The position numbers and the translations under genes were made by a program. Positions 24,156 through 32,622 of a stretch of DNA of 32,622 nucleotides are shown here, one piece after another; within the stretch, counting starts at the first letter, position 1, and every line of letters starts with the position of its first letter. Origin of the DNA: Ktedonobacterales bacterium (GTDB taxonomy: Bacteria > Chloroflexota > Ktedonobacteria > Ktedonobacterales > JADMIN01). The notes below the pieces were generated by a model. It did no database searches and had not been told where the DNA came from. It saw only the letters and a list, made by a program, of their open reading frames with translations. The DNA lies in assembly GCA_036265775.1 (NCBI GenBank), contig DATAOM010000355.1, positions 1-32,622 of the forward strand, in the 5' to 3' direction.

Positions 24156-27032
24156 TCATTTCAGGTTGATCGCCCAGATACTACGGCCGTGCGTCGCCGC
24201 AAACAACTTATGCCCGGTGCTGGTCGTCACCAGCGTGAGGCCATTGACCTTAACGATCGGCAGGCCGGAGCCAACCGGCAGCCAGTGGGAGGTCCCGCCA
24301 CCGATATTGTGCAGGACGCCGAAATCGGTGGAAACGTAGACGTCGTTGGCGTGCGGGTCGAAGGCGATGCCAGTGATTGGCTGGTCGCCGAGACCGCTGC
24401 TCAGATCCGTCCATGTCGCCGTGTGCGTCGCCGGATCGTAGAGGACATCGAAGACATGGCCCTTCGCCGTCCCCGCGGCCTGCGCGTATGCGTCATAGCC
24501 CGAGAACGAGATGAACGCATGGTTCGGATTGCGCGGATCGACCGCGATACCGCTCACAAAGCGCGTCGGCGTGTTCGGCGTGTCGATGCGCGTGTAGGAG
24601 ACGGTGCTCGCATCGCTCGCATCAGCGTTGGTGCTGATGAAGACACGACCACGGCGCGTGCCGGCCCACAGCGTGCCGGTATTGCTCGTCGTGCGGGCGA
24701 TGGCGACGACATAGTTCCCAGCGGAATCAGCCGGGCTGCTCGCACCCTTGTCCGCGCCGAAGAACGTGCCGGAGAGGTCGCCAGCGTCATTCAAGTTGGT
24801 CGACGGGAATGGGTCGTTCGGGTTGGCATAGACGCCACCCATGGGCACCCAGTCGCCGCACTTCGCGGCGAAGTCGCCGGTGAACTCGTTGCAATGCTGG
24901 TCGAGATAGGCTTGCGGGCCGCCATTATCCGTGGTGCGGAAGATGTGCTGCTCGCCCTCAAACATCGTGTCGGCCTTGGCCGTATTCGGATCGTAGATCA
25001 TCGGCACGTAGAAGGACGCGCCCTCATTGTTGCCGAGCGGATCGGCGATCCAGTCCCACTGGTCCGGCGCGCCATTGTGGAAATTGACGTCGTGCGCCGG
25101 ATTGAAGAACGAATGGAACGAGATGTTGGAGTGAGCGGCGTTGATGCCAGACTGGCCACCGTCACCACCAATCGCCTCGAGCCAATCGCTCGTGCCACCA
25201 CCCTGGATCCCGTTCATCCAGGTGCCGTTGTCCTGGGTGCCACCGATGAGCATGCTCGGATTCTGCGGATCCACCGAGACGCTCTGGAACTGCAGTGTCT
25301 GCAGGCCGGCGTTCATGGAATAGATACGCGTCGGCACCGCAGTGAGCCAGGCGTTGCAGAGAGCCTTGGAAGTGGCGCCGAGACCGCGGACATTGCACCC
25401 CAGGTTGGGGTCAGTGGCCATATTCGAAAAGGTCCCGCTTGTGCGCACAATGCCGCCGTCAGAGCCAGCGAAGGCGATATCGGGGTTGTTCGCGTCAAAG
25501 GCGAGCGCGTGCTGGTCGGGGTGCATCCCGATGAAGTTCATGTCGTAGCTCATGTCCGTGAAGCTGACACCCGCATTCGTGGAGCGCTGCACGGCGCGCG
25601 AGTTGGACCGACCCGCTAACTCTTCGTACTTAAACAGTCCACTGAGCCAGACCGTGTCCGGATGGCCAGCAGGCGAGGTGACGACCATATCGTAACTGCA
25701 CTGCGATGTGGTCTGGGTGCGGCAGAAGTCGTACGATGCGAAGCCGTTCGGGTTGGAGGCGCTGGAGTTGGAAAGCTCCTGCCAGACAGGGGTCGCGATG
25801 CTGGCGTCGTCGGTGCGATAGAACCGCGCGATTCCAGTCCGCCCATCAGCAAGATAGATGCGAAGCTTGCCGCTGCCATCGATCAGCGGAGCGAGCGCGA
25901 ACTCCACGCGGTTGTTCGCGCTGTTCGCAGGGTCTCCGGCGTCAAATGCGGTGAAGACCTGCTCGAACGCGCCGTTCGTGCCACGGAAGAGGCCGTAGTC
26001 GAACATCGAGAAGTAGAAGCGCCCTGTGGTCGTCGGGTCAAACGAGACCTTGGAGACACCACCGCGGAAGAAGTCGCTTCCGTTCGGAGAGGTGGGATCC
26101 ACCGGATCGGATGGTTGACTGAAGGTCAAGGTGAAATGTGCGCCACCATCGGTTGACTCGTAGAGGCCAATCGTCGGCGCGCCCGGGGGCGTGAAGCGGC
26201 CACCGTTCACAGACGACACGCCGTGACGGGCCACCGCGGTGCCAATCACAATGTGGCTGGCGTTGTGGGGGTCCACGTCGATCGAGGCGATCGAACGGCC
26301 AGCCGCCGCAGCCGGGCTGCCGGCGAGCAGGGTCCAGTGGGCGCCACCATCGGTCGTCGAGTACATGCCAACCCCGGCCTCAGAGTCGCTGGAACCGTTG
26401 GGTTCGCCGGTACCGACGAGGACGTGATCCTTGTTGGCTGGATCGACCCAGAGGGAGCCGATGGCCGCCGAATCCATTCCGTTCGGCATTGCCGTCCAGC
26501 TCGGAGGCGTCGCCAGCGCGTCATTGGTGCGCCAGACGCCACCGCCAGCGGCGCCGAGGTAGAGCCGGCAATCACCAGGATTGCAGGTCGAAGCCACGCC
26601 AATCGCCGTGACACGTCCCGATTCAATCTTTGGCCCGAACGAGCGGGACCATTCGACTGGGACGTTGCCGGTCGAGGGGCCGAGCGGCTGCCACGTGGCG
26701 CCCTTGCCATTCGGATCGCCACCCTTCACGATGCCGTTGTATGCATTGCGGGCATTGGACACCTGGGCCGGGGCGATGTACGTCGATGGATACGCCTGAT
26801 TGTCGTAGAGCTCCTGATTGGGGCTGCCAAGGTCGCTTCGCGGAGCCTCGGAGCCGGCATTATCGCTTTCAAACTTACCGGTGTGGTGGCTAAATGAGAG
26901 ATTGGCGCCTACGCTAGTGGGGCGCACGAGGAACGTGCTCGCGCTTACCGCCACCAGGGCAACCACCCCGACGACGCCAATGATGCCAAGGATCCGCTGC
27001 CGTGCGGACAGACTGGATAACCAGCGTTTCAC
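24156..27032 (-). CDS. Large secreted or membrane-anchored BNR/Asp-box repeat beta-propeller protein (VPS10/GH74-like)
   Basis: Asp-box motifs STDGGAHW, STDGGAHF and STNAGVSF, plus GTQDNGTW and TTDNGG. N-terminal signal anchor KRWLSSLSARQRILGIIGVVGVVALVAV. I place the start at GTG 27032 (G-rich SD AAGGGGGGGG ending 4 nt upstream, separated by UGUA) rather than the track's 27140. Confidence 0.85.
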   Translation of the reverse strand: MKRWLSSLSARQRILGIIGVVGVVALVAVSASTFLVRPTSVGANLSFSHHTGKFESDNAGSEAPRSDLGSPNQELYDNQAYPSTYIAPAQVSNARNAYNGIVKGGDPNGKGATWQPLGPSTGNVPVEWSRSFGPKIESGRVTAIGVASTCNPGDCRLYLGAAGGGVWRTNDALATPPSWTAMPNGMDSAAIGSLWVDPANKDHVLVGTGEPNGSSDSEAGVGMYSTTDGGAHWTLLAGSPAAAAGRSIASIDVDPHNASHIVIGTAVARHGVSSVNGGRFTPPGAPTIGLYESTDGGAHFTLTFSQPSDPVDPTSPNGSDFFRGGVSKVSFDPTTTGRFYFSMFDYGLFRGTNGAFEQVFTAFDAGDPANSANNRVEFALAPLIDGSGKLRIYLADGRTGIARFYRTDDASIATPVWQELSNSSASNPNGFASYDFCRTQTTSQCSYDMVVTSPAGHPDTVWLSGLFKYEELAGRSNSRAVQRSTNAGVSFTDMSYDMNFIGMHPDQHALAFDANNPDIAFAGSDGGIVRTSGTFSNMATDPNLGCNVRGLGATSKALCNAWLTAVPTRIYSMNAGLQTLQFQSVSVDPQNPSMLIGGTQDNGTWMNGIQGGGTSDWLEAIGGDGGQSGINAAHSNISFHSFFNPAHDVNFHNGAPDQWDWIADPLGNNEGASFYVPMIYDPNTAKADTMFEGEQHIFRTTDNGGPQAYLDQHCNEFTGDFAAKCGDWVPMGGVYANPNDPFPSTNLNDAGDLSGTFFGADKGASSPADSAGNYVVAIARTTSNTGTLWAGTRRGRVFISTNADASDASTVSYTRIDTPNTPTRFVSGIAVDPRNPNHAFISFSGYDAYAQAAGTAKGHVFDVLYDPATHTATWTDLSSGLGDQPITGIAFDPHANDVYVSTDFGVLHNIGGGTSHWLPVGSGLPIVKVNGLTLVTTSTGHKLFAATHGRSIWAINLK

Positions 27033-27436
27033 TACACCCCCCCCTTGGACTAGATGGTCACGAACTACGGTGGCGGAAATGGCTCGCAGCCAGCGCCACA
27101 ATTGGCAATCGGACGAATTGCCCCTACACAAGCGCCGCAAATGCCGTGTACTCGTTGCTCTAGCGTCACATGTGGCTGGAGCAATTGCGCGCCGATGATG
27201 CGTTTACACGGCGCAGCAGGAGAGATACGGCATGTGACATTCCGGGCCTCGTCCGAACGCAACGCACATTGGGCCGCTGCCCCTACACGCCAACCGACGC
27301 CTGTTGCTCCATTGCAGCAGGCGGACTTTAGCAGCCAGATTGCACCTCAGCGGAATCTCTGTGACTTCTCCTTGCCACTCCTCCTTTTGCTCGTTCAGCA
27401 ACAACGAATCTAGCGTAGTGTCTGTTATAGCTTGCA

Positions 27437-27465
27437 AGTATAGCGGGTAACGCTCCTTGAGTAAA
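27437..27465 (-). promoter_or_regulatory. Sigma70-like promoter candidate facing the BNR-repeat gene (TTTACT-17 nt-TATACT)
   Basis: The reverse complement of 27437-27465 reads TTTACT CAAGGAGCGTTACCCGC TATACT. It would give an about 400-nt leader before GTG 27032. Confidence 0.35.
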
Positions 27466-27570
27466 GAGCCTGTTTCCTGCTATAAACCGATCCGCCTGAG
27501 ATGGCGTATGAAGGCTGTTCGCCGCCTGTGCGACCTACTACGCTCGTTCGATACAGAAGTGGTGAGGGAA

Positions 27571-27612
27571 AGCGCCTACCAACGCAGGTAGCGCTCTGGA
27601 CTGAGCGCTACC
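27571..27612. promoter_or_regulatory. Three-segment mutually exclusive hairpin set (attenuator-like)
   Basis: Segment 2, GGTAGCGCT (27587-27595), pairs perfectly with segment 3, AGCGCTACC (27604-27612). It can alternatively pair, with one bulge, with segment 1, AGCGCCTACC (27571-27580). Confidence 0.3.
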
Positions 27613-27721
27613 ATACCTTCTGTGTTCAACGGAGCAGGTGTATTTGGGTAACTGCGCTACAGCGAGAAATCTCTTCCTTTGAATATTTGCTATACTGCTT
27701 GCCTTTGTCCTTTGTTTACAC

Positions 27722-27750
27722 TTGACACGCTTCGACCGTCCCGGTAAGAT
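27722..27750 (+). promoter_or_regulatory. Strong sigma70-like promoter candidate (TTGACA-17 nt-TAAGAT)
   Basis: TTGACA at 27722-27727, a 17-nt spacer and TAAGAT at 27745-27750, about 75 nt upstream of the small membrane-protein gene. An extended -10 TGCTATACT at 27688-27696 sits just upstream. Confidence 0.55.
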
Positions 27751-27825
27751 AGGCGCCATGCTACGCCTGAACATCGGGTGGAGAGGGTCTCTAGACCTGT
27801 GTTTAAGTAGAGAGGCAAGGGGTTC

Positions 27826-28053
27826 ATGTCGAGCACATGGCGCTGGATTGTCACGGCCTTGGGTCTCATTACTGGCGCGCTGTTTCTGCTGACGGTGGTC
27901 AATGCGGACTGGCTCGAAGCTATCGGCATCGATCCTGATGGCGGCGATGGCTCGGTCGAGCGGTTGATCGTGGGGGGACTGGCATTACTGACAGTAGTTC
28001 TCTTCTCGGTGGCCTCCTATCAATGGGGAAAGGCCAGCGCGGCCAAGGCATAG
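27826..28053 (+). CDS. Small two-TM membrane protein (75 aa)
   Basis: Two hydrophobic helices flank the loop DWLEAIGIDPDGGDGSVE. This resembles a conserved small-protein motif (DW.E..FG.DPD.G.GS.E) that I recall from actinobacterial hypothetical proteins. A purine-rich stretch GAGGCAAGGGG lies upstream of ATG 27826. Confidence 0.65.
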   Translation: MSSTWRWIVTALGLITGALFLLTVVNADWLEAIGIDPDGGDGSVERLIVGGLALLTVVLFSVASYQWGKASAAKA

Positions 28054-28129
28054 TGATCGCCTGATCTGCCTGTTGGCGTGCTTGTATCCAGAGCGCGCGT
28101 TTCCTTGGTCCACCTCAGCTATCTATGCG

Positions 28130-28164
28130 AGACTGCCCGGAGCGGATGGCAATCTGGGCAGTCT
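28130..28164 (+). terminator. Stem-loop between the small membrane-protein gene and the repeat-protein gene
   Basis: AGACTGCCC (28130-28138) / GGGCAGTCT (28156-28164): perfect 9-bp stem, 17-nt loop, followed by TCTGCT. It may attenuate read-through from the 27722 promoter. Confidence 0.35.
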
Positions 28165-28371
28165 TCTGCTATGCGCGGTGTTGAATGGGCCATGCACGAA
28201 TGGCGCCGAGAAAAAGCGCTGCCGCCATCGCCATTGCCGCTTGAAGAGTTGCTAGGCCGTGATGGCGCAAATATCAAGGAAGCGCGCCATATGCACACCA
28301 CTTCCTCCGCTAGCTAGCGAACGAGCGAACGAGTATACTGTCGTGGCGCCACGCTACATGGGGGAGGCCCG

Positions 28372-31182
28372 ATGATCGACCAATCTGCGGACGTCAGCGC
28401 GCAAGCCAAGACGCTCATCAGCGCGCCGGGAGATGACGCTGAGCTACTGGAGCAGCTGAAGTCGCTAGCCCTGGCGCACGAGGAAGAATTCTCCGCCTGC
28501 GCAGGCGTCTGGGCGCCGGGGCTATACGAGCGCGATCCCGACTTCTTCGGGCCGTTCCTGGTCGCCTACCTGGACACCAAGCAGGAGGAAGCCATTAAGG
28601 CGCTCCTGGCCAGGGCGGAAGCCGACGGGCATGATGAACTCTTCGCCGATCTCTATCAGAAGTTTCGGGATGAGAAGAGTTGGAACGGCGATGTCGCGCG
28701 ACTCGCGCGCGCACGCCTCTCCGACGATGAAGCGCTCAAGGCGCTGCAACGCCGAGAGAATCCGCGCTCGCGCTGGCGGTTGAGTGAAGGTGTGGCGCTG
28801 GCGCTGTATCGGCGCAATCCCGAGCGCTTCGGCGAGTTCGTGCGCGAGCACGTCCAGCGTGGCTGGAGTCGTCGCCCGGAACGCTATCGGCGTTTGCGCC
28901 GAGAAGCGCGCGCACGCGGTGACGATACCCTCTACTGGGCGCTCTTCCGCGACTACGCCAGCGACGAGGAGTGGAGGGCGAGCGTCCATCAATTGCTGGC
29001 GAGCAAGCCCCCAGCCAGCGCACTGATCGAGGAGTTGGACAAGCGGCAGCCAACGCGCGCCGTCGCGTTGGACATGAAGACGCTCACCAGCCTCGTGCGT
29101 ACCTACCGGCAAGAGGCGATACCGTACCTCGAACAGCATCTCTCCTCGGCGCCGGATTCTTTGCTCAAACAGGCTCGCAAGCTCGGCGATGAGACGCTGT
29201 ACTGGTCTCTTTTCTTCCTCGCTGGAACCTCCGCGCGCTGGAACGCCGACCTGCGCGAGCAGATCGCCCGGCCGCTCTCGGATGAGCAACTCGAAGAAGT
29301 GTTGCGCCTGCGAACGCCGCCGGAGGAGCGCCGCCACGCCTGGCGATTGGAGAAGGACGTGGCGCAGGCGCTCTACCAGCGCAACGCCACTCTCTTCGGG
29401 CCATTCCTCGACGAATTCGCTAACGGTGGCCTGGCCGCCCTGGAGCTGCCCCAGCGCATACAGGCGGCGCTCGGCGCCGATCAGGATCGCGGGGCGCTCT
29501 TGCGCGAGATGGAAGCGCTCGCGCAGGCGCCTGGGTTCTCGGAGCAGGCGCCGCAGTGGGCTCCAGCGCTGTACGAGCGCGATCCGCTGTTCTTCGAGCC
29601 ATTCCTGACTAACCACCTCTCTGGCGACCAGACCGAGGTCATCACGCAACTGCTCACGCGCTCCGAGGCGGCGGGACAGGACTCCTTCTTCACCGCGCTC
29701 TACCGCAAGGTCGCGCGGGAAGATACGTGGAACAAAGAACTCGCCGAGCTGGCGGAGTCGCCGCTGCCAGATGACACAGTGGTCCAGATGATCCTGCGCC
29801 GCCAGGCGGATAGCTGGCTCAGCCTCACCGACAAGACGGCGACGGCGCTCTATCGCCGCGATCCGGCGCGCCTGGGCGCTTTCGTGCGCGAGCATGCGCA
29901 GCACAGTTGGCGTGAGGAGGAGAGTTACAAACAACTGCGCGAGGCGGCGCGTCTGCGTGGGGACGACGATCTCTACTGGGCGCTGTTCCGCGAGCTGGCG
30001 GATGAGCGTGAGTGGCAGGCCGAGGCGCGCCGCCTGCTGGCCAGCGACACGCCTCCCGAGCGCATCGCCGAGGAGTTGACGAAGCGCCACCCCGAACATC
30101 TGTGGAACGTCGATACCGGCGTCATCGCCGACATCATTGAGAAATACGGGCGCGCGGCGCTCCCCTACGTCCAGGAGCATCTGACCTGGATCACCCGTCG
30201 CGCGGCGCCGAAGCTCCTCACGCGCATCAAGAAGCTGGGCGATGAGAACCTGTACTGGCCCATCTTCTTCAAGGCCGGCGACAGCAAGCAGTGGAACGAG
30301 GCGCTGCGTGAGCTGCTGGCGCAGCCGCTCGGGGCCGAGGAGTTGGCCGCTCAGCTTCCTCTGCGCACGCCGCCCGTGCGCCGCTGGGGTGGCTGGACCC
30401 TTGAGGAGGATGTCGCGCTGGGCTTCTACCGCCGTGACCCACAGCGATTCGCGCCATTTCTGGAGCGGTTCGCGCATGGCTCCTACGACGAGGCGCTCTT
30501 CGTAGAAGCCCAGGCGAAGCAGGACGAGGACTTCCTGGATTATCTTTCACTTCAGCTCTTGCGCCAGATCGAGTCCTGGCTCAACCTGGCGTATCCCACC
30601 GACTCCACGCTCCGGTGGCGCAAGCCGGACATGAAGGCGCAGGACAAGGTGCGGCGCACGGGGCGTATGCTGACCGACCGCTTCGACCGCCTCGTGGCGC
30701 AGTCGCCTGCGCTGTACGTACGGCACGCGGCGGCGATGCTGAGCCGGATCAACGCGTTTGAGGTCTGGTCCTTCAAGCGAAACCTGTCGTTCAACCCAGC
30801 GTTCGCCTACCTGTACACGCAACATCGCGCGGCGTGGCTCGCCGAGCCGGATGCGCTGCGCGAAGTCCTGGAGTCGCCCAATATCTATGTGCAGATTCTG
30901 GGCCTGCTGATGCTCGGTGAGGGTGGCGCCGACGCGGCGGAGCGGGCGCGCGAGAATCTGTTGATCCTGCGCGCCCTCCTGCTTGGTGGCGCGCATGTGA
31001 GCACGAAGAAGCTGGCGCTGCGCGCACTCGAGCTGGCGGCGCGCCAGGGAGAGACGTACGCCGCGCAGTTCCTCCCGGTCGTGGAGGAGGCGGTCCACCT
31101 GAGCGGCAGACGCGCGGTGGACCAGCAGGCGATGGTCGCGTTCGTGCGGCTACAACGCGAGCTGGCGGCGCAGAGCGCCTGA
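28372..31182 (+). CDS. 936-aa all-alpha repeat protein of unknown family (internal duplication plus HEAT/ARM-like C-terminus)
   Basis: GGGGGAGG lies 4 nt upstream of ATG 28372. Residues about 22-352 and about 371-702 are collinear copies. The motif ALY(R/E)R(D/N)P..F..F(L/V) occurs six times, and GD(D/E).LYW.(L/I)F four times. The C-terminal about 200 aa look HEAT/ARM-like (NIYVQILGLLMLGEGG...LLILRALLLGG...KKLALRALELAA). Confidence 0.85.
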   Translation: MIDQSADVSAQAKTLISAPGDDAELLEQLKSLALAHEEEFSACAGVWAPGLYERDPDFFGPFLVAYLDTKQEEAIKALLARAEADGHDELFADLYQKFRDEKSWNGDVARLARARLSDDEALKALQRRENPRSRWRLSEGVALALYRRNPERFGEFVREHVQRGWSRRPERYRRLRREARARGDDTLYWALFRDYASDEEWRASVHQLLASKPPASALIEELDKRQPTRAVALDMKTLTSLVRTYRQEAIPYLEQHLSSAPDSLLKQARKLGDETLYWSLFFLAGTSARWNADLREQIARPLSDEQLEEVLRLRTPPEERRHAWRLEKDVAQALYQRNATLFGPFLDEFANGGLAALELPQRIQAALGADQDRGALLREMEALAQAPGFSEQAPQWAPALYERDPLFFEPFLTNHLSGDQTEVITQLLTRSEAAGQDSFFTALYRKVAREDTWNKELAELAESPLPDDTVVQMILRRQADSWLSLTDKTATALYRRDPARLGAFVREHAQHSWREEESYKQLREAARLRGDDDLYWALFRELADEREWQAEARRLLASDTPPERIAEELTKRHPEHLWNVDTGVIADIIEKYGRAALPYVQEHLTWITRRAAPKLLTRIKKLGDENLYWPIFFKAGDSKQWNEALRELLAQPLGAEELAAQLPLRTPPVRRWGGWTLEEDVALGFYRRDPQRFAPFLERFAHGSYDEALFVEAQAKQDEDFLDYLSLQLLRQIESWLNLAYPTDSTLRWRKPDMKAQDKVRRTGRMLTDRFDRLVAQSPALYVRHAAAMLSRINAFEVWSFKRNLSFNPAFAYLYTQHRAAWLAEPDALREVLESPNIYVQILGLLMLGEGGADAAERARENLLILRALLLGGAHVSTKKLALRALELAARQGETYAAQFLPVVEEAVHLSGRRAVDQQAMVAFVRLQRELAAQSA
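28435..30477 (+). repeat. Intragenic tandem duplication (about 1 kb x 2, diverged) inside the repeat-protein gene
   Basis: Copy A is about 28435-29427 and copy B about 29482-30477. The protein-level offset is 349 aa (WAPGLYERDP at aa 47, WAPALYERDP at aa 396). Roughly 40% aa identity by eye. Boundaries are approximate. Confidence 0.8.
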
Positions 31183-31209
31183 GAAGGCCAGGGGAGAACG
31201 GAGTCCAAC

Positions 31210-32622
31210 ATGGAGGTTGCGCTGGCGTACGACAGCCCGACGACGGTCATCACGACGCCTGGGGTTTCCGCGCTGGAGATCGCCACCAATCGCCGCCGCG
31301 CGCCCGTCGCGTTCAGGGGTCGGGTGAAAGCGCCCTACCTGCTGCGACAACTCCTGCTCGGGCTGCATCGGGTGATCGTGAGCGACCTGCGCTGGCTCGA
31401 CGAGGACGAGTGGGTACAGATGCTCGACCCCGTCATCACCGTGCATCACGACCAGCTCTTCTTCGAGGCGTTCAGTAACGACCAGTCCTCGTACGCCCGC
31501 CTCTCCGCGCCGCTGGACGCGTTCGAGCCTGAGGGTGAGGTGCGCTACGGGACGACGAATATCGACTTCACCGAGCAACTGCGTGACGCGCTGACGCAGT
31601 TACGCAGCTCGCGGCGCACATTATTGGCGGTGGGCGCGACGGGCTTTGGTGTGACCTCAGCGGTCGGCGCGGGAGCGCGCGAGCATGTCGAGCGCAAGGT
31701 CGATGTGCCGGATGACTGGCTCAAAGGCTTCCTCCAGGTGCAGAGCGCCTTCGCCATGCATCCTTACCAGTTCGACGCCCAGCCGGTGGACCTGCTCTCG
31801 GTGATTGCCTTCTTGCAAGAGAACAAGCCGCCCACACTGCCGCACGGGATGCGCGTCGAGTTCACTCCCGACGCGCCGATTCTGATCGCGCTGGAACCCT
31901 GGGACCAGCGCTTCGTCCTGCGTGGGACGCGCTATAGCGGCTACGAGCGCAGCGTACGCCTCTGGGGGCGACGGCGGCTTGAACTATTGCAGGGTGTGCT
32001 GCCCTACGCCGACAAGGTGACAATTGGGGTGCTGGGGCGCGGCCTGCCACACTACTACATCTGCCATTGCGGGCCGTTTCAGTTCACGCTGGCGCTCTCC
32101 GGCTGGACGAAGAATGACTGGTCGAAGGATAGCGCGTTAGATGCGCTCGCGCCGCGTGGGACACCCGACGTGAAGCTGGTTGCGCGGGTCTACGCCTATC
32201 TCGGCGAGCGCCTGCTGGCGCGCCGGGACGAGATCGCCGCCGACATAGGGATCGAGAAGAGTGAGGCGGAGAGCGCGCTTTTCGCGCTGTGCCGCGCCGG
32301 GCGGGCGATGTATGACCCCACCACACGCCAGTATCGCAACCGCGACCTCTTCGCCGAGCCGCTCGACATCGTGAAGTTGTTCGCGCCGAATCCACGTGCC
32401 CTCGCGGCGCAGCGCCTCGTAGAGGCGGGGGCTGTGTCGCTGGGGGAGATCACGCCGCCTGAGCGCCGGGACGACAATCGCCGCGAGACCCGCGCGGAGG
32501 CGCGTGTGACCGACGGGCAGGTCTACGATGTTCTGGTCTCGGTCGATAGCTCAGGGCGCTTGCGCTTTGGCCGCTGTGGATGCCCCTACTTCCAGAACAA
32601 CCTCTTGTCGCGTGGCCCCTGC
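31210..32622 (+). CDS. SWIM zinc-finger protein with a long N-terminal domain and a winged-helix-like segment; 3'-truncated by the window end
   Basis: Not in the supplied ORF track because it has no stop. I translated frame 1 from ATG 31210 (GGAG 6 nt upstream) to nt 32622 and found no stop (471 codons). It ends in YDVLVSVDSSGRLRFGRCGCPYFQNNLLSRGPC, the first part of a SWIM CxC...C(x)H finger (CxC at 32575-32583). It starts 27 nt after the upstream stop. Confidence 0.85.
   Translation, partial: MEVALAYDSPTTVITTPGVSALEIATNRRRAPVAFRGRVKAPYLLRQLLLGLHRVIVSDLRWLDEDEWVQMLDPVITVHHDQLFFEAFSNDQSSYARLSAPLDAFEPEGEVRYGTTNIDFTEQLRDALTQLRSSRRTLLAVGATGFGVTSAVGAGAREHVERKVDVPDDWLKGFLQVQSAFAMHPYQFDAQPVDLLSVIAFLQENKPPTLPHGMRVEFTPDAPILIALEPWDQRFVLRGTRYSGYERSVRLWGRRRLELLQGVLPYADKVTIGVLGRGLPHYYICHCGPFQFTLALSGWTKNDWSKDSALDALAPRGTPDVKLVARVYAYLGERLLARRDEIAADIGIEKSEAESALFALCRAGRAMYDPTTRQYRNRDLFAEPLDIVKLFAPNPRALAAQRLVEAGAVSLGEITPPERRDDNRRETRAEARVTDGQVYDVLVSVDSSGRLRFGRCGCPYFQNNLLSRGPC

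What the first reader, a model, noticed from the sequence alone, without database searches (positions are those of the whole stretch)
31210..32622. Unlisted open-ended ORF: SWIM zinc-finger protein with an about 300-aa unknown N-terminal domain and a winged-helix-like segment, apparently in an operon with the repeat protein
The supplied ORF track misses this gene because the window ends before its stop. Translation from ATG 31210 gives 471 uninterrupted codons. Residues about 320-380 (VARVYAYLGERLLARRDEIAADIGIEKSEAESALFALCRAGRAMYDPTTRQYRNRDLF, about nt 32170-32350) read like a winged helix-turn-helix. The last residues (YDVLVSVDSSGRLRFGRCGCPYFQNNLLSRGPC) are the first three Cys of a SWIM CxC-x(n)-C-x-H finger. 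SWIM domains were originally described in bacterial SWI2/SNF2 ATPases, MuDR-type transposases and MEKK1. To my recollection E. coli YehQ, of the MoxR/VWA-containing yeh cluster, is also annotated with one. The partner enzyme, if any, should lie just beyond the window edge.
Basis: partly seen in the sequence, partly recalled or inferred. Interest (0 to 1): 0.6.

Follow-up and report, generated by a model that had tools for sequence, protein, structure and literature searches.

The report
Retron type XIII SWIM partner protein
The open-ended gene encodes the zinc-finger helper protein of a known but mechanistically unsolved bacterial reverse-transcriptase system (a type XIII retron), and its "unknown" front half is predicted to fold like a DNA sliding clamp.

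Summary
ATG 31210 opens 471 stop-free codons that run off the contig end; the window is a whole contig. Full-length relatives (51-99% identical) are about 499 aa, so about 28 codons are missing. They complete the finger as CxCx12CxH.

The protein is catalogued. It matches PADLOC SWIM_XIII at E=4e-140, the "DEDE motif / winged helix / SWIM" protein of type XIII retrons (Mestre 2020, the class of Mx162 and Mx65). The upstream 936-aa repeat protein is its HEAT/ARM-like partner.

In every relative at least 85% identical, including a syntenic contig, the gene is followed by a covariation-supported msr-msd RNA and an RT_XIII reverse transcriptase. The "partner enzyme beyond the edge" is therefore a retron RT, not an SNF2, MoxR/VWA or nuclease gene. 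That part is missing from this 76%-complete assembly.

The N-terminal 300 aa are predicted to be a PCNA-type sliding-clamp protomer (two AlphaFold models, three Foldseek searches), not the transposase-like nuclease suggested in 2020. I found no paper reporting this. Other agents of this scan noted the same fold in homologues from at least 10 other genomes.

No study of type XIII retron function was found. Verdict: new member of a known kind.

The parts
28372..31182 (+). 936-aa all-helical HEAT/ARM-like repeat protein, the upstream partner gene of the module
   Evidence: ORF. No Pfam, NCBIfam or PADLOC hit. A homologue lies directly upstream of the SWIM gene in all 30 nearer loci. This matches Mestre 2020's HEAT/ARM clusters that precede cluster 114_1.
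31183..31209 (+). 27-nt intergenic spacer with a Shine-Dalgarno-like GGAG at 31200-31203
   Evidence: Sequence read. No promoter or terminator match between the two genes.
31210..32622 (+). SWIM_XIII gene, 3'-truncated by the contig end (471 of about 499 codons)
   Evidence: PADLOC SWIM_XIII E=3.7e-140, residues 64-471 against model positions 96-493 of 509. Relatives of 499 aa at 99% identity.
31210..31308 (+). N-terminal tail, residues 1-33: low model confidence, but Tyr7 and Arg30 are invariant across 84 sequences
31309..31704 (+). Predicted clamp-fold domain 1 (residues 34-165; strand-helix-3 strands, twice). It carries the invariant D73, D81, E86, D91, T115-T116-N117, D119, R132 and E161, which include the published 'DEDE motif'.
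   Evidence: Secondary structure. Foldseek hits to PCNA. Motif. Invariant residues.
31705..32109 (+). Conserved helix 168-181 (P167, W170, F174, Q176 invariant) in the place of PCNA's interdomain loop, followed by predicted clamp-fold domain 2 (residues 186-297; W252, G253, R254 invariant)
32134..32343 (+). Winged helix-turn-helix, residues 309-378
   Evidence: Model elements H321-334, H339-346, H350-362, E366-369, E374-377. TrmB, DprA_WH or HTH_24 Pfam hits in 4-9 of 84 family members. Zalpha-type winged helices in the PDB at E=0.0055.
32485..32622 (+). SWIM zinc-finger beta-sheet with the first three ligands (Cys456 at 32575-77, Cys458 at 32581-83, Cys471 at 32620-22). The His and the final helix lie beyond the contig end.
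   Evidence: CxCx12CxH in 115 of 117 full-length relatives. Pfam PF04434 passes gathering on P0002 and hits 69 of 84 family members.

Best explanation
The ORF encodes the SWIM accessory protein of a type XIII retron (PADLOC SWIM_XIII; Mestre 2020 cluster 114_1). It is co-transcribed with its HEAT/ARM-like partner, the 936-aa repeat protein.

By inference from close relatives, the rest of the system lies just past the contig end:
- the last 28 or so codons of the gene;
- about 110 nt of spacer with a TATAAT-like box;
- an msr-msd RNA of about 140 nt;
- a retron reverse transcriptase of about 430-440 aa.

Predicted anatomy of the protein, in order:
- a short conserved N-terminal tail;
- a PCNA-type sliding-clamp protomer of two domains, which is the most conserved part and carries six invariant acidic residues and several conserved arginines;
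- a winged helix;
- a CxCx12CxH SWIM finger.

Proposed mechanism (inferred, not shown). The RT copies the msd part of the RNA into a short hairpin msDNA of about 65 nt, branched from the invariant G of TTAGCC. The SWIM protein binds this nucleic acid through its clamp-like body, winged helix and zinc finger. Together with the HEAT/ARM scaffold it forms the effector half of the system. The RT-msDNA part holds it in check or arms it until infection disturbs the msDNA, as in the characterised retrons.

My odds: identity as the SWIM_XIII protein of a type XIII retron module, about 0.93. An RT and ncRNA actually following in this organism, about 0.9. The clamp-like domain acting as a nucleic-acid-binding module rather than an enzyme, about 0.5. 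An anti-phage role for the system, about 0.55.
For: Family identity:
- The window's own truncated protein hits SWIM_XIII at E=3.7e-140. The 99%-identical full-length relative hits it at E=6e-145.
- The published family features are present: D73-x7-D81-x4-E86-x32-D119-x38-E158, a winged helix, and CxCx12CxH.

System context:
- Relatives at 99, 96, 93, 91, 85 and 71% identity all show repeat protein, then SWIM gene, then a 230-286 nt gap, then an RT.
- L015 is syntenic with the window over 25155-32621 at 84-91% DNA identity.
- Those RTs are RT_XIII at E=1e-135 to 1e-141.
- Of 61 genome loci with at least 2.5 kb of downstream DNA, 54 have the RT downstream on the same strand.

ncRNA in the gap:
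- A profile of the RNA finds it in 33 RT-positive loci, always directly upstream of the RT.
- An a1/a2 stem ends at the invariant G of TTAGCC and encloses an msr hairpin and an msd hairpin.
- 91% of cells are paired, against 34-55% when the partners are slid. 18 of 29 pairs change on both sides, and 0 of 500 shuffles reach that.

Clamp fold:
- Two AlphaFold models were made: P0002 with 20 sequences (pTM 0.77), and the window's own sequence with 84 cross-phylum sequences (pLDDT 83, pTM 0.85).
- Both give PCNA as the top 50 PDB hits: E down to 1.2e-12, target TM 0.70-0.78, about 500 hits at E<=0.001.
- The viral library returns viral PCNAs and phage beta-clamps.
- The order of strands and helices reproduces PCNA's twice-repeated strand-helix-3-strands pattern in each of two domains.
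- Conserved arginines R46, R132, R135, R250, R254 and R256 sit on or next to the helices that line the DNA channel in PCNA. This placement is inferred from topology.
Against: - The RT and ncRNA are not in the window or anywhere else in this assembly. Their presence here is inferred from relatives only.
- Six to seven of 61 loci, plus four more found by other routes, carry the same gene pair with no RT. Most of these are Anaerolineae-type loci at about 53-63% identity.
- The clamp fold is a prediction. No Pfam clamp model hits any of 84 members, and the two halves show no sequence similarity to each other.
- Six invariant acidic residues are unusual for a passive clamp. They could form a catalytic or metal site.
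- I found no experiment on type XIII function. Mestre 2020 reports partly vertical inheritance and raises a non-defence role.
Confidence: 0.85

Rival explanations
1. The SWIM protein is the catalytic effector. It would be a metal-dependent nuclease whose active site is the invariant acidic 'DEDE' cluster, possibly derived from a Mutator/IS256-type transposase, as Mestre et al. 2020 proposed.
For: D73, D81, E86, D91, D119 and E161 are invariant in 84 sequences from at least seven phyla, including the RT-less ones. The published motif is present. MuDR-type transposases also carry SWIM fingers (Makarova 2002, cited). No other enzyme is recognisable in the module.
Against: DDE/DEDE transposases have an RNase H-like fold. 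Both models of this region give a clamp fold instead, and the top 50 PDB hits contain no transposase, integrase or RNase H. No Pfam transposase or nuclease model hits any of 84 members.
Confidence: 0.2
2. In this organism the pair is a stand-alone, RT-less two-gene module (repeat protein plus SWIM protein), like those in Anaerolineae, and no retron lies beyond the edge.
For: RT-less pairs exist (L005-L008, L031, L035, L036, L038, L042, L078), and their SWIM proteins score just as well on SWIM_XIII. The own assembly contains no RT_XIII gene and no ncRNA.
Against: All relatives at 85-99% identity, including the syntenic L015 and the two contigs with the 99%-identical protein, have the RT. The RT-less loci belong to a clade at about 53-63% identity. 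The assembly is only 76% complete and the contig simply ends inside the gene.
Confidence: 0.07
3. The module is a domesticated, vertically inherited retron with a cellular role such as DNA metabolism or regulation, rather than phage defence. The clamp-like protein would act on host DNA.
For: Mestre 2020 found a 0.78 correlation of cluster 114_1 with 16S and suggested functions other than defence. The window's neighbours are transporters and ordinary genes, not a defence island.
Against: At 85-93% protein identity the cassette sits between different flanking genes, which points to mobility. In three loci a DUF4062-STAND-TPR gene is nested inside the cassette, and one RT-less pair adjoins type III CRISPR genes. 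All retrons characterised so far act in defence (abstracts).
Confidence: 0.3
4. One reading: the SWIM protein is the adaptor of an SNF2 helicase, a MoxR-AAA/VWA pair or a nuclease encoded downstream, as in the E. coli yeh cluster.
For: SWIM domains do occur in SNF2 ATPases (Makarova 2002, cited).
Against: None of about 90 related loci shows such a gene as the conserved neighbour. The conserved neighbour is a retron RT.
Confidence: 0.01

Closest known systems
Type XIII retrons (Mestre et al. 2020, RT clade 10; Retron-Mxa1/Mx162, Mxa2/Mx65, Nex2/Ne144, Sau1/Sa163) and their cluster 114_1 protein, which is PADLOC SWIM_XIII
   Same: Near full-length match to the SWIM_XIII model. The DEDE motif, winged helix and CxCx12CxH finger are all present. 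A HEAT/ARM-like gene lies upstream. In close relatives an RT_XIII gene with its own msr-msd RNA lies downstream.
   Different: This is a Chloroflexota-type lineage; named relatives are Ktedonobacterales, Anaerolineae and Chloroflexia MAGs. That phylum is not among those listed for type XIII in the passages I read of the 2026 SPIRE survey. The predicted msd is short (about 65 nt, like Mx65 rather than Mx162). The HEAT/ARM partner is a 936-aa form, whereas relatives have forms of about 590-680 or about 1040-1160 aa. In the window itself the RT and RNA are missing because the contig ends.
PCNA / 9-1-1 / beta-clamp sliding clamps (DNA clamp fold)
   Same: The predicted two-domain protomer has the same strand-helix order as PCNA, with target TM 0.70-0.78. 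Conserved arginines lie at the helices that face DNA in PCNA.
   Different: There is no detectable sequence relationship. A conserved helix replaces the interdomain connecting loop. Six invariant acidic residues are present. The domain is fused to a winged helix and a SWIM finger. Ring formation, a loader and polymerase partners are all unknown.
Retron-Eco7/Ec78 (type I-A), in which a retron has co-opted the stand-alone Septu PtuAB effector pair
   Same: A two-protein effector module exists both alone (the RT-less pairs) and attached to an RT-msDNA module. This suggests the same evolutionary logic of co-option.
   Different: The effector proteins are unrelated. PtuA is an ATPase and PtuB an HNH nuclease, whereas here no ATPase or recognisable nuclease is present. 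The analogy is conceptual only.
Zalpha winged-helix domains (ADAR1; cyprinid herpesvirus ORF112)
   Same: They are the best sequence-profile match in the PDB for residues 300-369 (E=0.0055), with the same winged-helix layout.
   Different: The Asn and Tyr that contact Z-DNA in Zalpha align with Glu and Phe here (alignment). The similarity is in fold only.

Membership tests
SWIM_XIII / Mestre cluster 114_1 (type XIII retron accessory protein) | Full-length match to the family profile | tested here: met
   PADLOC PDLC02972: the window protein scores E=3.7e-140 over residues 64-471 against model positions 96-493 of 509. The genomic search also aligns residues 1-66.
SWIM_XIII / Mestre cluster 114_1 (type XIII retron accessory protein) | Central Dx7[D]x4Ex30-32Dx37E motif | tested here: met
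   D73-x7-D81-x4-E86-x32-D119-x38-E158 in the window protein, with the last spacing one residue longer than published. D73, D81, E86, D119 and E161 are invariant in 84 sequences.
SWIM_XIII / Mestre cluster 114_1 (type XIII retron accessory protein) | Winged helix upstream of a C-terminal CxCx12CxH SWIM finger | tested here: met
   The winged helix is modelled at residues 309-378. CxCx12C is present in the window, and the His lies beyond the edge but is present in 115 of 117 full-length relatives.
Type XIII retron (the whole system) | Clade-10 retron reverse transcriptase (RT_XIII) next to the accessory genes | tested here: inconclusive
   It is not in the window or the own assembly. It is present downstream in all relatives at 71-99% identity, with RT_XIII at E about 1e-135 to 1e-141.
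Type XIII retron (the whole system) | msr-msd ncRNA with an a1/a2 stem and a branching G, next to the RT | tested here: inconclusive
   It is absent from the window and the own assembly. In relatives it is strongly supported by covariation. msDNA synthesis itself is not testable here.
Type XIII retron (the whole system) | HEAT/ARM-like repeat protein gene preceding the SWIM gene | tested here: met
   The 936-aa gene ends 27 nt upstream. Homologues hold the same position in 30 loci. No PADLOC model matched it.
SWIM zinc finger (Pfam PF04434) | Score above the gathering threshold, with the CxC...CxH ligands | tested here: met
   The truncated window protein gives no hit. The 99%-identical full-length P0002 scores 22.6 bits against a cut-off of 19.6. 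69 of 84 family members hit at E<0.01.
PCNA / sliding-clamp family | Two-domain clamp fold | tested here: met
   This rests on prediction only. Two models give top-50 PDB hits that are all PCNA or 9-1-1, with E down to 1.2e-12 and target TM 0.70-0.78. The viral library agrees.
PCNA / sliding-clamp family | Sequence membership (Pfam PCNA_N / PCNA_C or beta-clamp models) | tested here: not met
   No clamp model hits any of 84 members. Sequence and profile searches of the PDB find only the winged helix.
PCNA / sliding-clamp family | Closed ring oligomer that encircles DNA and is loaded by a clamp loader | not testable with these tools
DDE/DEDE transposases (Mutator, IS256) | RNase H-like catalytic fold carrying the acidic residues | tested here: not met
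   The region that bears the motif is modelled as a clamp fold. No transposase or RNase H-like structure is among the top 50 hits of either PDB search, and no Pfam transposase model hits.
Zalpha (Z-DNA-binding winged helix) | Conserved Asn and Tyr of the recognition helix that contact Z-DNA | tested here: not met
   In the alignment to ORF112 Zalpha, these positions are Glu and Phe.

The most novel reading that the evidence does not exclude
The SWIM_XIII protein assembles through its PCNA-like body into a ring or partial ring that clamps the msDNA hairpin, or foreign DNA once released. That would make type XIII retrons, and the RT-less repeat-protein/SWIM pairs, the first immune or conflict systems built around a sliding-clamp fold. 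It would also give a mechanism at last for the retron class discovered first (Mx162).
Probability: 0.25. Interest if true: 0.75.

Novelty: new member of a known kind. Interest (0 to 1): 0.45.

Why it matters
Type XIII is the class of the first retrons ever described (Mx162 and Mx65 of Myxococcus), yet I found no study of its function or structure. Its accessory proteins also contain no recognisable enzyme.

This window adds a Chloroflexota-lineage member. More usefully, the analysis gives a concrete, testable picture of the accessory protein: a clamp-like DNA-binding body, then a winged helix, then a zinc finger. This replaces the earlier "transposase-derived nuclease" guess.

It also shows that the repeat-protein/SWIM pair can exist without the RT. 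That suggests a stand-alone module which retrons co-opted. For the annotation of this genome, it turns an unlisted open-ended ORF into a named component of a defence-type system.

Tried and rejected
- Pfam and NCBIfam on the truncated protein gave nothing beyond a weak TrmB winged-helix hit.
- Rfam at E<=1 on three relatives' loci found no family for the ncRNA.
- Sequence and profile searches of the PDB found only Zalpha-type winged helices and no clamp.
- hhalign of clamp domain 1 against domain 2 gave a probability below 1%. This is uninformative.
- A profile-profile test against real PCNA sequences was not possible. The PF00705 search reported only which control genomes matched and gave no loci.
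- The rest of the retron was sought in the own assembly by tblastn with two RT_XIII proteins, by blastn with L015's downstream DNA, by a regex and by an nhmmer profile of the ncRNA. None found it. The C344 match is an internal paralogue, not a contig end.
- An exact-match scan of metagenome contigs with the window's last 41 nt found nothing. A protein-based scan found nothing closer than 93% identity with DNA.
- The contigs that carry the 99%-identical protein could be read only as gene tables, without DNA.
- I considered that the downstream RT might be a group II intron. I rejected this because the RT is RT_XIII by profile, lacks extra intron domains, and always follows a covarying msr-msd RNA.
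- The E. coli YehQ analogy could not be tested directly.
Full report
**Observation.** ATG 31210 opens a frame of 471 codons that runs without a stop to base 32622. The window is the whole of contig C355 in a 567-contig assembly estimated 76% complete, so this assembly holds nothing downstream. The preceding 936-aa gene stops at TGA 31180-31182. The 27-nt spacer carries GGAG 6 nt before the ATG, and no promoter-like or terminator-like site lies between the genes. The gene is real: 384 homologues were scored, the best 99% identical, and nearly all are 480-510 aa. Only about 28 codons are therefore missing. The relatives continue ...RC(E/G)CPYFQNNLLSRGPCEHLLAV... and stop about 26 codons after the His.

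**Family.** The truncated protein gets no Pfam or NCBIfam family. The full-length 99%-identical relative passes the Pfam SWIM gathering score. The PADLOC library is decisive. The window's own protein matches SWIM_XIII at E=3.7e-140 over almost the whole model, and the relative matches at E=6e-145.

SWIM_XIII corresponds to cluster 114_1 of Mestre et al. 2020 (PMC7736814). [quoted passage not shown] It is the primary accessory protein of type XIII retrons (Mx162, Mx65, Ne144, Sa163) and is usually preceded by a HEAT/ARM-like repeat protein. Each feature holds here:
- D73-x7-D81-x4-E86-x32-D119-x38-E158 is present in the window protein.
- The finger spacing is exactly x12 in 115 of 117 full-length relatives.
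- A homologue of the window's repeat protein lies directly upstream of the SWIM gene in all 30 nearer loci.

**What lies beyond the edge.** Gene tables or DNA for relatives at 99, 96, 93, 91, 85 and 71% identity all show the same order: repeat protein, SWIM protein, a gap of 230-286 nt, then an RVT_1 protein of 395-442 aa. L015 (96%) is syntenic with the window on both sides of the repeat-protein gene, at 84-91% DNA identity. These RTs are RT_XIII by profile, at E about 1e-135 to 1e-141 and well ahead of every other retron RT model. They show the NAxxH, YADD and VTG motifs (sequences printed), which I know as retron RT signatures.

Among 80 loci fetched from named genomes, 61 have at least 2.5 kb of DNA downstream of the SWIM gene. 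Of these, 54 carry the RT downstream on the same strand.

The gap holds a conserved RNA gene. After a TATAAT-like box comes a 5' arm, an invariant TTAGCC, a short hairpin, a longer hairpin, and a 3' arm complementary to the first. RNAalifold recovers this layout. For the three helices, 91% of cells pair, against 34-55% when the partners are slid. 18 of 29 pairs change on both sides, and none of 500 shuffles reaches the observed values. The a1/a2 stem ends exactly at the G of TTAGCC, the position of the branching guanosine in known retrons. A profile of this RNA finds it in 33 RT-positive loci, always directly upstream of the RT, even where 3.5 kb is inserted between the SWIM gene and the RT. 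Rfam has no family for it.

**Limits of that inference.** The own assembly contains no RT_XIII gene and no copy of this RNA. The one downstream-like match (C344) is internal to its contig and only 76% identical, so it is a paralogue. Two metagenome scans gave nothing closer than 93% identity with DNA. The presence of the RT in this organism is thus inferred, at about 0.9. The main caveat is that RT-less versions of the pair exist: L005-L008, L031, L035, L036, L038, L042 and L078, mostly Anaerolineae-type at 53-63% identity. L026 looks RT-less but has the RNA at its contig end, so its RT probably lies beyond. The SWIM proteins of RT-less loci score as well on SWIM_XIII as the others and keep all the invariant residues.

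**The N-terminal 300 residues.** No Pfam model hits this region in any of 84 family members. Two AlphaFold2 models were made. The first used the 99%-identical full-length relative with 20 sequences (pLDDT 74, pTM 0.77). The second used the window's own 471 residues with 84 sequences from Chloroflexota, Armatimonadota, Myxococcota, Bacillota, Planctomycetota, Bacteroidota and Pseudomonadota (pLDDT 83, pTM 0.85, with the region mostly at 85-97).

Both models give the same answer in Foldseek against the PDB. About 500 hits reach E<=0.001. The top 50 are all PCNA or 9-1-1 subunits. The best E-values are 5.7e-11 and 1.2e-12, with target-normalised TM of 0.70-0.78 over about 280 columns. The viral library returns viral PCNAs, phage beta-clamps and poxvirus VLTF-1.

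The order of secondary-structure elements reproduces the clamp topology. Each of two domains is strand-helix-3 strands, twice over, and an extra conserved helix (168-181) stands where PCNA has its interdomain loop. These two domains are the most conserved part of the protein, with 27% invariant columns against 9-15% elsewhere.

The region that Mestre et al. read as a possibly transposase-derived DEDE nuclease is thus predicted to be a clamp fold. No transposase or RNase H-like structure appears among the top hits. I found no paper that links type XIII retrons or SWIM proteins to a clamp fold, though that library is incomplete. Other agents of this scan reported the same fold for homologues in at least 10 other genomes. 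I reached it independently and rely only on my own tests.

**Mechanism.** Shown: family identity, operon structure, conserved linkage to the RT and ncRNA in relatives, and the covarying RNA structure. Predicted: the clamp fold, the winged helix and the finger. Inferred: the RT makes a short hairpin msDNA of about 65 nt from the msd region; the SWIM protein binds nucleic acid through the clamp-like body, winged helix and finger; with the HEAT/ARM scaffold it forms the effector half of the system, and the RT-msDNA part controls it.

The conserved arginines R46, R132, R135, R250, R254 and R256 lie at the helices that face DNA in PCNA. That placement rests on topology alone, because I could not inspect coordinates. 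The RT-less pairs suggest that the two-protein module is older and was co-opted by a retron, as Septu PtuAB was in Retron-Eco7 (abstracts). This fits Mestre's remark that the components did not all co-evolve equally.

The six invariant acidic residues remain unexplained by a passive clamp. A catalytic or metal-binding site, or a partner interface, are both open. I put a nuclease function at about 0.2.

Whether the system defends against phages is untested. In favour are the variable flanks at 85-93% identity, a STAND NTPase gene nested in the cassette in three loci, and a CRISPR type III neighbour in one locus. Against are the ordinary neighbours in this window and the partly vertical inheritance reported in 2020.

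**Verdict.** The finding is a correct observation of a gene that the ORF track missed. The partner is a retron RT, however, and the protein belongs to a family catalogued in 2020. It is a new member (Chloroflexota lineage) of a known kind. The main added value is the clamp-fold prediction, which gives a testable hypothesis for a retron class with no known mechanism.

Noticed in passing
L019:9526-12639(-), L041:8283-11465(-), and L024 by its similar spacing: In three Chloroflexia/Ktedonobacterales loci, about 3.4-3.8 kb is inserted between the SWIM gene and the ncRNA-RT. The two read (L019, L041) encode one opposite-strand protein of about 1040-1060 aa with DUF4062, NB-ARC/AAA_16 (STAND NTPase) and TPR domains. 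The ncRNA stays attached to the RT.
   Followed up: partly
L005-L008, L031, L035, L036, L038, L042, L078: Repeat-protein/SWIM pairs with no RT within 3-8 kb and no ncRNA, mostly Anaerolineae, CFX3, CFX4 and Aggregatilineales. Their SWIM proteins keep all the invariant residues. In L007 the pair sits directly after type III CRISPR RAMP/Csx19 genes.
   Followed up: partly
L015:9617-9756 and the equivalent stretch in 32 other loci: The msr-msd RNA of this retron lineage has no Rfam family. A TATAAT-like box (TTGCTATAATGG) lies about 20 nt upstream of the 5' arm in L015, L010 and L013.
   Followed up: partly
window 32107-32316 (residues 300-369): By profile, the winged helix is closest to Zalpha (Z-DNA/Z-RNA-binding) domains of cyprinid herpesvirus ORF112 and ADAR1 (E=0.0055 to 0.7). 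The Z-DNA-contacting Asn and Tyr are Glu and Phe here.
   Followed up: partly
window 27118-27612 compared with L015:1956-4415: There is an indel of about 2 kb between the window and its syntenic relative just upstream of the repeat-protein gene. L015 carries three extra minus-strand ORFs there (228, 171 and 208 aa).
   Followed up: no
own genome G000:C291:3843-4202(-): A 570-aa open frame with weak similarity (36% over 112 residues) to the retron RT. It is another reverse transcriptase of unknown class in the same assembly.
   Followed up: no
L015:11164-11212, with own genome C152:9952-10000 and C359:10939-10986: A 49-nt stretch just after the RT stop codon in L015 is 100% identical to a site on contig C152 of the window's assembly and 85% identical to one on C359. 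It may be a small dispersed repeat.
   Followed up: no
L065, L068, L074, L076, L094: In Planctomycetota, 'Uabimicrobium' and Polaribacter loci, the frame directly upstream of the SWIM gene is open for more than 2000 aa. This is a much larger partner than the HEAT/ARM proteins of 590-1160 aa elsewhere.
   Followed up: no
window 32578-32580: The residue between the first two zinc ligands is Gly in the window (CGC) but Glu in the 99%-identical relative (CEC). Both variants occur across the family.
   Followed up: no
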